From a virus: a DNA stretch of 64,000 nucleotides. Shown here piece after piece: positions 2,290-32,978 of this stretch. The stretch spans positions 38,177 to 102,176 of the IMG/VR virus record IMGVR_UViG_3300009085_000022, one strand, 5' to 3'. Every line of letters starts with the position of its first letter. Within the stretch, counting starts at the first letter, position 1. The position numbers were made by a program, and so were the translations under genes. The notes under the pieces were generated by a model, which saw only the letters and a list, made by a program, of their open reading frames with translations, was not told the DNA's origin and did no database searches.

Positions 2290-2364
2290 GGTGATTGATG
2301 AGCTACGATCTCATTACCTTCAGATCCACAACCTGACGCTCTAACCAATTGAGCTACAATCACC
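2290..2364 (-). tRNA. tRNA-His (GUG), with encoded G-1 and atypical T loop
   Basis: GGTGATTG/CAATCACC acceptor; TCAGG-TTGTGGA-TCTGA anticodon arm; T loop ATCGTAG. Confidence 0.85.
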
Positions 2365-2371
2365 ATATTAG

Positions 2372-2445
2372 TAGAGACAGGAGGATTTGAACCTCCTACC
2401 TCCCGGATATCAGCCGGGTGCTCTAGCCAATTGAGCTATGTCTCT
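2372..2445 (-). tRNA. tRNA-Ile (GAU)
   Basis: AGAGACA/TGTCTCT acceptor; CCCGG-CTGATAT-CCGGG anticodon arm; TTCAAAT T loop. Confidence 0.93.
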
Positions 2446-30771: not shown

Positions 30772-31297
30772 CAGATCACTTTTACTTAACGAGCTAAACC
30801 TAGCACATGTAGTTTTTAAATTTGCAGTATGTGATCTTATACAGGACAGAACGTGATTACTTAAAAGGTAATTGTTTTTAAAATTGCTAAACTGTCCTTA
30901 TCAGAGTTGTTTGTTTTCAATCTAATGCTCTACCAACTGAGCTATCTACCATCTTTAAGGTAGAACTGGAATCGAACCAGTGACCCATAGAACCTTGAGG
31001 ATTATTTTTAATTTGCTGAACAACTCTTATCAGGTGTCGGTTATTACTGTTTCAAAACCAAAATTTGAGAGTATATAATTTTTAATTTGCTGATGACACC
31101 TTATAACAGAATACGACTTTTTTTCTTTTAGCAGAAGAATTTTAAATTGCTGAATGTATTCTTAAAATTATGGAGATTTCTTTAAAGTTTTTGATATATA
31201 CACCATTTTACAGGTGGAAAGTATATACACCTCTTTCAATAAAGAAATTCTCCAATTTTTACATATATTTAGTATATATGTTGCTGATATCCACCTA
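30772..31297 (-). ncRNA. Tandem array of six Y-RNA-like units, four with tRNA-derived cargo
   Basis: Units 31211-31297, 31107-31163, 31031-31102, 30902-31028, 30842-30899, 30772-30838; each (A/T)AG-stem-(C/T)(A/T)GCAA ... stem'-CTG with compensatory changes. Confidence 0.8.
30914..30991 (-). ncRNA. Circularly permuted tRNA-Phe(GAA)-like domain (YrlA-like) inside array unit 4
   Basis: T arm ACTGG-TTCGATT-CCAGT precedes the D arm GCTC-AGTTGGTA-GAGC; acceptor TCTACC/GGTAGA closed by an 8-nt loop. Confidence 0.8.
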
Positions 31298-31301
31298 TTT
31301 A

Positions 31302-32978
31302 TTATATTGTTATCATTTGAATTATTTCCTGATCTAAAGCAGCATTAAATAATTCATCTGCTGTACTAGGAATTTTTGCAGATTTACCTTCTGTACCTAA
31401 TAAGAAAGTAATAACTGAACCATCAAATCCACTAAAATAAAATACATTCTTTGCCGGACCATAAGTTTCAAATTTAACTTTCTGATTACGTCCATAAAAC
31501 TCATTTCTTATATCCCAAAATACGAATTTGAAATCTTCAACAAATTTAGGAGATAATCCAGCAAACAATAAACGATGTTTAAATGCTTTTATATTAGTAG
31601 TATCATACATTTTAGTACGATCAAATTCACCATCAGATATTAATATAATACCAGTAGGAAATTCAGATTCAGGAACTCCGCTTTCATAAACTTGTACAAA
31701 TAAGTTAGCTACAGCTTCAAAATTTGTATTAGCAGATTCAACTCTATTTTCTGTAATCCAATGGTCATAAAAATTAACACCCTGTATTTTTCTTAAATAA
31801 GCAGTGGTACTAAAATCTATATAATGATTATGAAACCATCCCTGTATAAGATTACCAAAAAATATAGATAATGATTTAGCTATATGATATGAACTCATAT
31901 TAGTTCCAATAGCTATACTATTCATACTACCTGAAGTATCTTTTACAACAATAAAATTAGCATTAACTTTACCAGCTTTTTCTAATAATTGTTTATACTG
32001 AGCATTAATAGTATCAATTTGATATTTTTTAATGTTCCCAACTATTTTACTAGCTAGTTCATATACATATCCTGTAAATTTAGCAACTGGTTTAGTACTG
32101 ATCCAAGTTTCGTACTTCGCTTCAAGACCATTATTTGCTAAAAACTTAGAAGATACTAATTGACTTAAAGCTCTACCATGAATAGTATTAAAATCAATTT
32201 CTAACATACGGCCCTGACTTATTAACTGTTGCCAGGAATGAGCCGTACCAGAAACTTTTAATTTCCTATATTTAACATAGTTATAATGCTTTTCATCAGG
32301 AGTTTTACCACCAAATAATAAACTACAAATATATTTTGCAATCATATTATCAGCCTGAGACTCAACTGTTGTACATTTAGAATGTGCTTTAATTTGAGGT
32401 AAATATTTCTTTATAAGATTATTAGTATTAGGATTTTCTAATCCTACTAATATTAATCTACCAAATTTATCCCAATTTAAAACTTTACCATTCCAACCAT
32501 GAAATATTAAATCATATTGTAACATTACAATTATATCTTTCCAAGAGCCTACAGATATAAATATATGTATATTTTTCCAGAAAGAATCTTCATGATTAAT
32601 AGCTATCCAAAGCATACGAAGAATGCCTTCATGCTTTAAACCGGCTCCTTTTTGTACTTCTTTAGTTTTCAAATTGTCAAACAATGATACAATACGGGTA
32701 ATCATTCTGATATAAATAGTAAACATAATAGTTACTAAAGGATTTAACCCCCATAGAATAGCCATATCTTTCTCAATCTCTAAGTATTTACGAGGCTCTT
32801 TATATCTACCAACCTGACCAAACTGATCTACAAATTCATTTCCTGTAGAATTAAATTTCATAGCATCATTGCCTGAACGCACTTTAGCTGATTTTCTCAT
32901 ACCAGCATTTAAAAATGAATTCTTATCTGATTTAACAGATGCTGTTCCTAATAAGGAAGATTTTTTACTTTCAAACAT
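31302..32978 (-). CDS. TROVE/DUF2828-like (Ro60-related) helical protein with C-terminal vWA domain
   Basis: Helical N-domain (STGNEFVDQF, GAGLK, GSWKD, KYLP); vWA MIDAS DTSGSM, NTNF, ILISDGEFD, FWD, SGFD. Confidence 0.75.
   Translation of the reverse strand: MFESKKSSLLGTASVKSDKNSFLNAGMRKSAKVRSGNDAMKFNSTGNEFVDQFGQVGRYKEPRKYLEIEKDMAILWGLNPLVTIMFTIYIRMITRIVSLFDNLKTKEVQKGAGLKHEGILRMLWIAINHEDSFWKNIHIFISVGSWKDIIVMLQYDLIFHGWNGKVLNWDKFGRLILVGLENPNTNNLIKKYLPQIKAHSKCTTVESQADNMIAKYICSLLFGGKTPDEKHYNYVKYRKLKVSGTAHSWQQLISQGRMLEIDFNTIHGRALSQLVSSKFLANNGLEAKYETWISTKPVAKFTGYVYELASKIVGNIKKYQIDTINAQYKQLLEKAGKVNANFIVVKDTSGSMNSIAIGTNMSSYHIAKSLSIFFGNLIQGWFHNHYIDFSTTAYLRKIQGVNFYDHWITENRVESANTNFEAVANLFVQVYESGVPESEFPTGIILISDGEFDRTKMYDTTNIKAFKHRLLFAGLSPKFVEDFKFVFWDIRNEFYGRNQKVKFETYGPAKNVFYFSGFDGSVITFLLGTEGKSAKIPSTADELFNAALDQEIIQMITI

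What the first reader, a model, noticed from the sequence alone, without database searches (positions are those of the whole stretch)
30902..31028. Circularly permuted tRNA-Phe inside array unit 4 (YrlA-like architecture)
Seen on the minus strand: the 3' half comes first (TCTAT-GGGTC-ACTGG-TTCGATT-CCAGT-TCTACC), then an 8-nt linker TTAAAGAT, then the 5' half (GGTAGA-TA-GCTC-AGTTGGTA-GAGC-A-TTAGA-TTGAAAA). The acceptor stem is therefore closed by a loop and the molecule opens at the anticodon loop, which keeps a GAA anticodon. Upstream TCAA can pair with TTGA (positions 32-35) leaving a 3-nt GGT bulge, similar to a 37/38 splice-site geometry; with only 4 bp this may be chance. Known: YrlA Y RNAs have T-before-D order with a looped acceptor stem, and permuted tRNA genes are otherwise known from some algae and archaea. 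Standard tRNA scanners may miss it.
Basis: partly seen in the sequence, partly recalled or inferred. Interest (0 to 1): 0.8.

Follow-up and report, generated by a model that had tools for sequence, protein, structure and literature searches.

The report
tRNA look-alike on phage Ro60 RNA
This is a real, conserved tRNA-shaped module with T arm before D arm and a looped acceptor stem, carried in one unit of a small-RNA array beside a phage Ro60-like protein gene; it is a tRNA mimic of the YrlA kind on a previously undescribed scaffold, not a working permuted tRNA-Phe.

Summary
On the minus strand at 30914-30991 the order is anticodon-stem 3' strand, V loop, T arm, 6-bp acceptor closed by an 8-nt linker, D arm, anticodon-stem 5' strand. 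Re-permuted, ARAGORN calls tRNA-Phe(GAA); Rfam YrlA matches at 35.9 bits, below its threshold.

The YrlA-like reading holds:
- The unit lies about 275 nt downstream of a 558-aa DUF2828/DUF7788 protein on the same strand.
- That protein's predicted structure matches full-length Ro60/Rsr.
- A covariance model finds 41 such modules beside homologous genes in 39 loci (36 metagenomic contigs, two cultured phages and this window).
- Covariation is very strong (93.9% paired against 40-46% in slid controls).

The "tRNA-Phe with a GAA anticodon and splice-like opening" reading does not hold:
- Only 5 of 40 modules show even a loose anticodon-loop pattern, about chance.
- The sequence after the stem strand is the A-rich tail shared by all 224 array units.
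- The UCAA/UUGA helix is not conserved.
- The acceptor has 6 bp plus U.U, with no discriminator A or CCA.

YrlA's Ro-binding GNCGAA motif is absent; a stem plus UACAGCAA scaffold replaces it.

Verdict: a new variant of a known kind. Its function, probably tethering or decoying a tRNA-binding factor, is inferred.

This scan had already noted the array and the Ro60-like gene on this same window.

The parts
31302..32978 (-). 558-aa Ro60-like protein (DUF2828/DUF7788; HEAT-repeat ring plus vWA with MIDAS), the presumed protein partner of the array RNAs
   Evidence: Pfam DUF7788 and phrog_850 'RNA-binding protein'. AF2 model pLDDT 86.4, pTM 0.87. The top 13 Foldseek PDB hits are all Ro60/Rsr/TROVE, full length. 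MIDAS residues D347, S349, S351, T418 and D449 are invariant in 40 homologues.
30772..31295 (-). Array of six stem-closed small-RNA units, starting 7 nt after the stop codon. Each unit reads AAG, 6-9 bp stem, (UA)CAGCAA-AUUAAAA motif, variable cargo, A-rich tail, 3' arm, CUG(A/U)AUAAG junction.
   Evidence: Read directly. Unit parser. The same grammar occurs in 54 loci and 224 distinct units with 187 different stem arms.
30902..31028 (-). Unit 4, the finding: the whole scaffold unit carrying the tRNA-like cargo
31019..31026 (-). Closing stem, 5' arm GAGUUGUU
   Evidence: Pairs with 30904-30911. RNAfold's MFE and centroid give 9 bp including A31027-U30903.
31005..31018 (-). Scaffold motif CAGCAAAUUAAAAA, predicted unpaired; the likely protein-recognition element
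   Evidence: AGCAA was the parser's anchor and cannot count as conservation. The bases around it are conserved: A 81% and C 91% before it, and A66 T62 t42 A58 A61 A62 A55 % after it.
30987..30991 (-). UCUAU, 3' strand of the anticodon-stem equivalent (tRNA 39-43)
   Evidence: Helix 1 in A5: 80% paired, 5 of 5 pairs with compensatory changes
30965..30981 (-). T arm ACUGG-UUCGAUU-CCAGU
   Evidence: Helix 2 is 98.5% paired. Also in the YrlA alignment.
30945..30964 (-). Acceptor stem closed into a hairpin: UCUACC, linker UUAAAGAU, GGUAGA (6 bp plus a U.U)
   Evidence: Helix 3 is 98.3% paired, 6 of 6 pairs covary. ARAGORN drawing.
30927..30942 (-). D arm GCUC-AGUUGGUA-GAGC
   Evidence: Helix 4 is 98.8% paired
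30921..30925 (-). UUAGA, 5' strand of the anticodon-stem equivalent (tRNA 27-31)
30912..30920 (-). UUGAAAACA: reads as a Phe anticodon loop, but is two or three free bases followed by the scaffold's A-rich tail
   Evidence: Tail composition across modules and across all units. No other viral contig has this configuration.
30904..30911 (-). Closing stem, 3' arm AACAACUC, followed by UG and the AUAAG junction
   Evidence: (I13)

Best explanation
Unit 4 is a Y-RNA-like small RNA whose cargo is a YrlA-type tRNA mimic. The mimic is a complete tRNA core (anticodon-stem equivalent, V loop, T arm, acceptor stem closed into a hairpin, D arm) that should fold into the tRNA L-shape but has no displayed anticodon loop and no free CCA end.

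Inferred mechanism:
1. The array is transcribed with the Ro60-like gene.
2. Units are released at the CUGAUAAG junctions.
3. The Ro60-like protein binds the closing stem and the single-stranded UACAGCAA-AUUAA motif.
4. The protruding tRNA-shaped module engages a protein that recognises the tRNA elbow or body. It either tethers that protein to the particle, as Y RNA tethers PNPase to Rsr, or soaks it up as a decoy.

Shown here: the fold, its conservation, its linkage to the Ro60-like gene, and the lack of a conserved anticodon loop. Inferred: expression, processing, protein binding and the identity of the engaged factor.

The module probably arose from a tandem-tRNA junction captured into the scaffold.
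For: - Architecture and tRNA-likeness: ARAGORN on the re-permuted sequence, 0 of 2000 shuffles called, all tertiary-pair nucleotides present. Rfam YrlA 35.9 bits over the tRNA-like part. MFE and centroid fold.
- Conservation: model R1 finds 41 modules (E < 1e-6) in 39 loci. In the 36 metagenomic contigs they lie beside homologues of the protein; 33 of 40 lie inside recognisable scaffold units.
- Covariation: 93.9% paired against 40-46% slid, score 0.851 against 0.10-0.19, and 18 of 20 pairs with double changes.
- Strand: in helices 2-4 there are 32 G.U cells against 9 non-pairs, which points to an RNA of the gene's sense.
- Protein partner: Foldseek gives Ro60, Rsr and phage phiLo Ro60 as the top 13 hits.
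- The nearest DNA match is a YrlA-like element next to an annotated Ro-like protein in phage Satis.
- Precedent: YrlA mimics the T arm, D arm and acceptor and is modified by TruB and DusA (PMC4201824). Phage phiLo Ro60 with its Y-like RNAs binds host PNPase (PMC12135203).
- Origin: cargos copy different tRNA bodies, and long acceptor loops begin with a discriminator-like base plus C or CCA.
Against: - There are no expression or processing data.
- Binding of the protein to the scaffold rests on adjacency and fold only.
- YrlA's presumed Ro-binding motif GNCGAA is absent (1 of 224 units), and the Rfam YrlA score is below the gathering value of 69.
- The protein is not recognised as TROVE by sequence.
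- The perfect UUGAAAA loop in a Phe-like body could be more than coincidence, and this phage has no tRNA-Phe gene.
- Alignment A5 was fitted to the model, which inflates pairing somewhat.
Confidence: 0.8

Rival explanations
1. It is a true circularly permuted tRNA-Phe gene. The transcript would be cut and ligated across positions 38/39 (30914 joined to 30991), then opened in the acceptor linker by RNase P and 3' processing, giving a decoding tRNA-Phe.
For: The re-permuted sequence is called tRNA-Phe(GAA), with a canonical 7-nt loop and all tertiary nucleotides. The phage has no other tRNA-Phe. UCAA can pair with UUGA across the opening.
Against: - The acceptor is 6 bp plus U.U, with U rather than A at the discriminator position and no CCA.
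- An anticodon-loop pattern occurs in only 5 of 40 homologous modules against about 4 expected, and U33 in 10 of 40.
- The look-alike units L014, L009 and L054 have AAGCAAA, AUAAAAC and AAUGCAA in its place.
- The loop merges into the scaffold's A-rich tail.
- The cross-opening helix is in 3 of 40 modules and absent from the MFE.
- No other viral contig shares the configuration.
- From general knowledge, no bulge-helix-bulge splicing endonuclease pathway is known in bacteria.
Confidence: 0.04
2. It is a processing signal. The tRNA-like fold recruits RNase P or RNase Z to cut the polycistronic transcript (tRNA punctuation), and the RNA has no role after that.
For: M. smegmatis YrlA is cleaved by RNase P and receives CCA (PMC4201824). 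Many modules in this family have 7-bp acceptors whose long loops begin A/G-C(CA). No terminator or promoter signal above chance separates the array from the flanking genes.
Against: The module sits inside a unit, not between units, so cleavage would split the unit rather than release it. The window's copy has 6 bp and a short closed loop, the type that Chen et al. did not see cleaved. The unit boundaries are marked by a different conserved junction, CUGAUAAG.
Confidence: 0.09
3. It is a relic of a tandem tRNA junction (3' part of one tRNA, spacer, 5' part of the next), or a scanner artefact of that kind, with no function.
For: Tandem tRNA junctions do match such models. Examples are the window's Ile/His junction at 32.5 bits, the Acinetobacter phage hit and Tsamsa junctions up to 43.8 bits. 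Chen et al. list this as the known false-positive class.
Against: - No complete tRNA flanks the element.
- The two acceptor strands pair with each other, and do so in 98% of cells across 41 modules with compensatory changes.
- The element is enclosed by a covarying closing stem and recurs beside the same gene in 36 metagenomic contigs.
Confidence: 0.03
4. The array is a DNA-level feature, for example repeated promoters on the plus strand (TTTTTAATTTGCTG contains a Bacteroidota-like TAnnTTTG -7 box), and the RNA folds are incidental.
For: The reverse complement of the scaffold motif resembles the Bacteroidota -7 consensus (general knowledge; sequence, D2).
Against: All neighbouring genes are on the minus strand. 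There are 187 different closing-stem arms that always pair. G.U pairs sit on the gene-sense strand. A tRNA-shaped cargo has no role in a promoter.
Confidence: 0.03

Closest known systems
YrlA Y RNAs of bacteria and phages (Rfam RF02553; Chen et al. 2014, PMC4201824)
   Same: Encoded on the same strand within a few hundred bases of a Ro60-type gene. The tRNA-like domain has the T arm first, then an acceptor-like stem closed by a loop, then the D arm, joined to the rest of the RNA through the anticodon-stem equivalent. The short-loop 6-bp form resembles Salmonella YrlA; the long-loop forms with CCA elsewhere in this family resemble M. smegmatis YrlA.
   Different: The partner protein is a DUF2828/DUF7788 family member that only fold comparison links to Ro60. 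The GNCGAA motif and the long Ro-binding helix are replaced by a 6-9 bp stem plus UACAGCAA-AUUAA. The RNA is one unit of a head-to-tail array of up to seven units with interchangeable cargos. The Rfam score is 35.9 against a gathering value of 69.
Thermus phage phiLo Ro60 with Yrl1/Yrl2 (PMC12135203; PDB 9KOP, 9L5Y)
   Same: A phage-encoded Ro60-fold protein with adjacent small RNA genes. 9KOP and 9L5Y are among the best structural matches to the window's protein.
   Different: The phiLo RNAs carry the CGAA motif and are two genes upstream of the protein gene, not an array. No tRNA-like module is reported for them in the passages read.
Circularly permuted tRNA genes of Cyanidioschyzon merolae and some archaea
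   Same: The 3' half precedes the 5' half, and the sequence re-permutes to a cloverleaf. This comparison rests on general knowledge.
   Different: Those genes have a conserved bulge-helix-bulge at the termini, a processable acceptor junction and a functional anticodon. Here the terminal helix and the anticodon loop are not conserved, and the acceptor is closed and short.
Dictyostelium Class I RNAs (Rfam RF01414; PMC7919456), for the scaffold only
   Same: Start AAG, a short covarying stem joining the ends, a conserved motif containing UACAGCAA next to the 5' arm, a variable middle, and an end in CUG(U). Rfam hits reach 37.3 bits in the window and 39.3 bits in L001.
   Different: The hits are below the gathering score of 41.5, and none passes in 17 array loci. 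The phage units are tandem and gene-linked rather than dispersed genes with a DUSE promoter. Class I RNAs have not been reported to carry tRNA-like cargo.

Membership tests
YrlA (RF02553) | Encoded within 4 kb of, and on the same strand as, a Ro60 orthologue | tested here: met
   The module lies about 310 nt and the unit about 275 nt downstream of the gene, on the same strand. The protein's predicted fold matches full-length Ro60/Rsr. It is not a TROVE match by sequence.
YrlA (RF02553) | tRNA-like domain ordered T arm, acceptor-like stem-loop, D arm | tested here: met
YrlA (RF02553) | GNCGAAN0-1G motif near the 5' end (presumed Rsr recognition) | tested here: not met
   Absent from unit 4. Present in the first 30 nt of only 1 of 224 units.
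YrlA (RF02553) | Reaches the Rfam gathering score (69 bits) | tested here: not met
   35.9 bits, local match to model positions 23-88. The Satis element next to an annotated Ro gene also reaches only 43 bits.
Permuted tRNA gene | The halves re-permute to a sequence that tRNA scanners accept | tested here: met
   ARAGORN calls tRNA-Phe(GAA), with 0 of 2000 shuffles called. The Rfam tRNA model could not be run on the re-permuted sequence because the tool reads held sources only.
Permuted tRNA gene | Conserved terminal helix or bulge-helix-bulge that allows joining across the opening | tested here: not met
   A 4-bp helix occurs in 3 of 40 modules and is not in the MFE or centroid.
Permuted tRNA gene | Anticodon loop maintained by selection | tested here: not met
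   A loose loop pattern occurs in 5 of 40 with about 4 expected; U33 in 10 of 40.
Permuted tRNA gene | Seven-bp acceptor with discriminator and a processable junction | tested here: not met
   6 bp plus U.U, U at the discriminator position, no CCA, 8-nt linker.
Permuted tRNA gene | Circular intermediate and mature aminoacylated tRNA | not testable with these tools
   Needs RNA from infected cells.
Ro60/TROVE proteins (the neighbouring gene) | HEAT-repeat ring plus vWA domain with MIDAS | tested here: met
   Foldseek E 3.5e-7 to 4.6e-4 against 2I91, 1YVR, 9KOP, 9L5Y and 2NVO over 509-618 columns. The MIDAS residues are invariant.
Ro60/TROVE proteins (the neighbouring gene) | Sequence match to the TROVE profile or to solved Ro60 sequences | tested here: not met
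   Pfam reports only DUF7788. phmmer against PDB sequences gives nothing at E up to 10.
Dictyostelium Class I RNA (RF01414), scaffold | Short covarying terminal stem, motif beside the 5' arm, AAG start and CUGU end | tested here: met
   features as stated in PMC7919456.
Dictyostelium Class I RNA (RF01414), scaffold | Reaches the Rfam gathering score (41.5 bits) | tested here: not met
   Best scores are 37.3 and 39.3 bits. No hit at gathering in 17 array loci.

The most novel reading that the evidence does not exclude
The array and its Ro60-like protein may form a modular tRNA-mimicry particle. A common scaffold, related to or convergent with Dictyostelium Class I RNAs, would display separate tRNA parts: whole tRNA bodies such as unit 4, Lys-type anticodon stem-loops, and T arms. 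The phage would use these to decoy or capture host tRNA-targeting defence enzymes or tRNA-repair and processing factors. Unit 4 would be the body decoy. If the scaffold is truly homologous to Class I RNAs, those RNAs would gain a candidate Ro60-like partner.
Probability: 0.25. Interest if true: 0.85.

Novelty: new variant of a known kind. Interest (0 to 1): 0.62.

Why it matters
tRNA-like Y RNAs are known only as partners of sequence-recognisable Ro60 proteins, and their role is still unknown.

This element shows the same tRNA mimicry attached to a different RNA scaffold and a very large, unannotated phage protein family: more than 1600 DUF2828/DUF7788 homologues, often labelled only "hypothetical". 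That gives the protein family a testable RNA partner. It extends Ro60-type particles to crAss-like and related uncultured phages.

The other cargos in these arrays are anticodon-loop and T-arm mimics. This points to a system in which phages display pieces of tRNA, which bears on the current interest in tRNA-targeting bacterial immunity.

The result also corrects a tempting misreading. A scanner-positive re-permuted sequence is not evidence for a permuted tRNA gene.

Tried and rejected
- **Closest relatives.** Whether near relatives keep the UUGAAAA sequence is therefore unknown.
- **Single-protein back-translation scan of viral contigs.** No relatives found. The alignment-based scan worked.
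- **Solved Ro60 by sequence.** Nothing. Fold comparison was needed.
- **Exact pattern search for D arm plus UUGAAAAYAA in viral contigs.** Nothing.
- **Distant DUF2828 genes in cultured phages** (Tsamsa, GAP32, PC79-13). No scaffold, and the model hits only tandem-tRNA junctions. The array is therefore not a feature of the whole protein family.
- **Rfam at gathering threshold on 17 array loci.** No Class I RNA or YrlA call.
- **Protein atlas.** It lists only viral clusters, so the Dictyostelium link could not be tested. Avesson 2011 is not in the library.
- **Promoter and terminator scan.** Uninformative, with counts at chance.
- **Rejected readings.** A functional Phe anticodon, a splice-like 37/38 geometry, a tandem-tRNA artefact and a DNA promoter array; the reasons are given under the rival explanations.

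Full report
**What is there.** On the minus strand, unit 4 (31028-30902) reads as follows:
- AAG;
- closing-stem arm GAGUUGUU;
- CAGCAAAUUAAAAA and a short spacer;
- UCUAU, GGGUC, then the T arm ACUGG-UUCGAUU-CCAGU;
- UCUACC, an 8-nt linker, GGUAGA, UA;
- the D arm GCUC-AGUUGGUA-GAGC;
- A, UUAGA, UUGAAAACA;
- closing-stem arm AACAACUC, then UG.

Standard scanners miss the element in its native order. Joining the 5' half to the 3' half gives a 70-mer that ARAGORN calls tRNA-Phe(GAA), while none of 2000 shuffles is called. The nucleotides of every class I tertiary interaction are present: U8.A14, G15.C48, G18.U55, G19.C56, A26.G44, the 9-23-12, 45-10-25 and 46-22-13 triples, U54.A58 and G53-C61. 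That these positions define the L-shape is established tRNA knowledge. RNAfold of the native unit gives the 9-bp closing stem, T arm, closed acceptor and D arm in both the MFE and the centroid, with z = -2.47. A permissive Rfam scan matches YrlA at 35.9 bits (E 2e-5) over model positions 23-88, which is exactly the tRNA-like part.

**Context.** The array of six units begins 7 nt after the stop codon of a 558-aa protein on the same strand. Pfam sees only DUF7788, and PHROGs calls the protein an "RNA-binding protein". Homologues carry DUF2828 plus DUF7788 and number more than 1600. Sequence search of solved structures finds nothing. A confident AlphaFold model (pLDDT 86.4, pTM 0.87) has full-length Ro60, bacterial Rsr and Thermus phage phiLo Ro60 as its top 13 Foldseek matches. 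The vWA MIDAS residues are invariant. The neighbouring gene is therefore a divergent Ro60-like protein.

**Relatives.** blastn of the intergenic region against cultured phages matches only the tRNA-like core:
- In Streptomyces phage Satis, the match lies directly upstream of an annotated Ro-like protein and scores 43 bits with YrlA.
- In a Vibrio phage, it is an unannotated YrlA-like element in a tRNA cluster.
- In an Acinetobacter phage, it is merely the junction of two tandem tRNAs, the known false-positive class (PMC4201824).

The closest cultured homologue of the protein (55% identity, Leptolyngbya phage Lbo-JY46) is followed by the same kind of array. Pattern scans and an alignment-based locus search brought in about 120 loci. 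Of these, 54 have arrays, giving 224 distinct units.

The scaffold consensus is cUGAUAAG, stem, UACAGCAAAUuAAAA, cargo, A-rich tail, stem, CUGAUAA. It occurs with 187 different stem arms that always pair.

**The module is conserved.** I built a covariance model of the permuted cloverleaf from ten short-loop modules. It finds 41 matches with E < 1e-6 in 39 loci. In the 36 metagenomic contigs they lie beside homologues of the protein, and 33 of 40 sit inside a recognisable scaffold unit. On their alignment:
- 93.9% of cells pair, against 40-46% when the partners are slid;
- the covariation score is 0.851 against 0.10-0.19;
- 18 of 20 pairs show changes on both sides;
- the T, acceptor and D helices are 98-99% paired, and the anticodon-stem equivalent 80%.

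The alignment was fitted to the model, which favours pairing. The acceptor and T stems are nonetheless unambiguous by eye. G.U pairs (32 cells in helices 2-4 against 9 non-pairs) fall on the gene-sense strand. The cargos copy different tRNA bodies: the common class I D arm, an Asp/Glu-like D arm, and class II bodies with a long variable arm.

There are two forms of the module:
- Short closed loops of 3-7 nt, which includes the window's copy.
- Loops of 13-22 nt that begin with A or G followed by C or CCA, like a tRNA 3' trailer followed by a 5' leader.

This pattern suggests the modules were captured repeatedly from tandem-tRNA junctions. That origin is an inference.

**Why it is not a working tRNA-Phe.**
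- In the 40 modules with enough flank, the seven bases after the stem strand fit a loose Y-U-NNN-R-N pattern in 5. About 4 are expected from column composition.
- U33 is present in 10 of 40, and the tail is 62% A.
- All array units, tRNA-like or not, end in an A-rich tail: 53% A in the last ten bases against 38% overall.
- In the window, UUGAAAACA is thus two or three free bases followed by that tail.
- Units that look orthologous, with the same GGGUC V loop and the same D arm (L014, L009, L054), have AAGCAAA, AUAAAAC and AAUGCAA there.
- The acceptor is 6 bp plus U.U, with U at the discriminator position and no CCA.
- No other contig in the viral collection has this D arm followed by UUGAAAAYAA.
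- The phage lacks a tRNA-Phe gene. This is the one point in favour of the rival reading.

**Membership.** By the criteria of Chen et al., the element meets linkage to a Ro60-type gene and the tRNA-like domain. It fails the GNCGAA motif (1 of 224 units) and the Rfam threshold. It works like YrlA but is not a member of that family as currently defined. The protein family and the scaffold are both different, and the RNAs come as arrays.

Literature searches found phage Ro60 with CGAA-type Y-like RNAs that recruit host PNPase (PMC12135203). [quoted passage not shown] Nothing was found on DUF2828 with RNA partners.

**Mechanism.** By analogy with Rsr and YrlA, I infer that the protein binds the stem plus the UACAGCAA motif and that the tRNA-shaped module engages a factor recognising the tRNA body. 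Short units of these arrays are strongly enriched in anticodon-stem-loop mimics (39 of 123 against 1.9 +/- 1.3 in shuffles), with the Lys-type loop CUUUUAA commonest. One such unit is the window's next unit (30897-30844). Anticodon loops and tRNA bodies are thus displayed on separate units. That fits a decoy or adaptor role in tRNA-centred conflicts, but this is a hypothesis.

In distant cultured phages the DUF2828 gene lies beside tRNA clusters or an RNA ligase. There the scaffold is absent, and the model hits only tandem-tRNA junctions.

**Side observation.** The scaffold has the same grammar as Dictyostelium Class I RNAs: AAG start, short covarying stem, a motif with UACAGCAA, a variable middle, and a CUGU end (PMC7919456). 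It scores 37.3 and 39.3 bits against that Rfam model, just under the threshold of 41.5. No unit passes at gathering. Whether this reflects homology or convergence could not be tested here.

Noticed in passing
window 30772-31295 (-); L001 4163-4511: The array scaffold has the same grammar as Dictyostelium Class I RNAs (RF01414), which are reported as unique to Dictyostelia. It scores 37.3 and 39.3 bits against a threshold of 41.5. DUF2828 also occurs in eukaryotes (the papers found concern plants). Whether Dictyostelia have such a protein that binds Class I RNAs is untested.
   Followed up: partly
L012 10501-10639, 10870-11005; L056 2188-2319; L078 5679-5769: Some tRNA-like modules have 7-bp acceptors whose 15-18 nt 'loop' begins A-CCA, that is, a discriminator plus an encoded CCA. 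They look processable into nicked tRNA-like RNAs with a free CCA end, as reported for M. smegmatis YrlA.
   Followed up: partly
window 30844-30897 (-), and 39 of 123 short units in other loci: Short units carry hairpins of 5 bp with a canonical 7-nt anticodon-type loop, far above shuffled expectation (1.9 +/- 1.3). CUUUUAA (Lys-UUU type) is the commonest loop.
   Followed up: partly
L045 6422-6781; L060 6306-6708: tmRNA genes (72.3 and 52.8 bits, above Rfam's gathering score) lie just downstream of the arrays in two related contigs. This places another tRNA mimic in the same neighbourhood.
   Followed up: no
L122 (Bacillus phage Tsamsa), L124 (Salmonella phage PC79-13), L123 (Cronobacter phage GAP32): Distant DUF2828 'RNA-binding protein' genes sit directly beside large tRNA clusters (Tsamsa, PC79-13) or an RNA ligase gene (GAP32), without the scaffold array.
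   Followed up: partly
L002 3495-3565 (Vibrio phage VB_VaC_TDDLMA): An unannotated YrlA-like element (Rfam 39.7 bits; R1 67.7 bits, though it was in R1's seed) lies in a gap of a tRNA cluster. No Ro-like gene is annotated within 3.5 kb.
   Followed up: no
window 31163-31295 (-): The first unit of the array is atypical. It has a GGUGGA/UCCACC stem (31295-31290 with 31218-31213). It also has a long-range inverted repeat, 31261-31240 with 31184-31163, that spans the unit boundary, and a repeated GGUGUAUAUA.
   Followed up: no
window 2332-2406 (-): The junction of the tandem tRNA-Ile and tRNA-His genes scores 32.5 bits with the permuted-module model. This is a concrete example of the dimeric-tRNA false positive, and a useful threshold guide.
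   Followed up: yes
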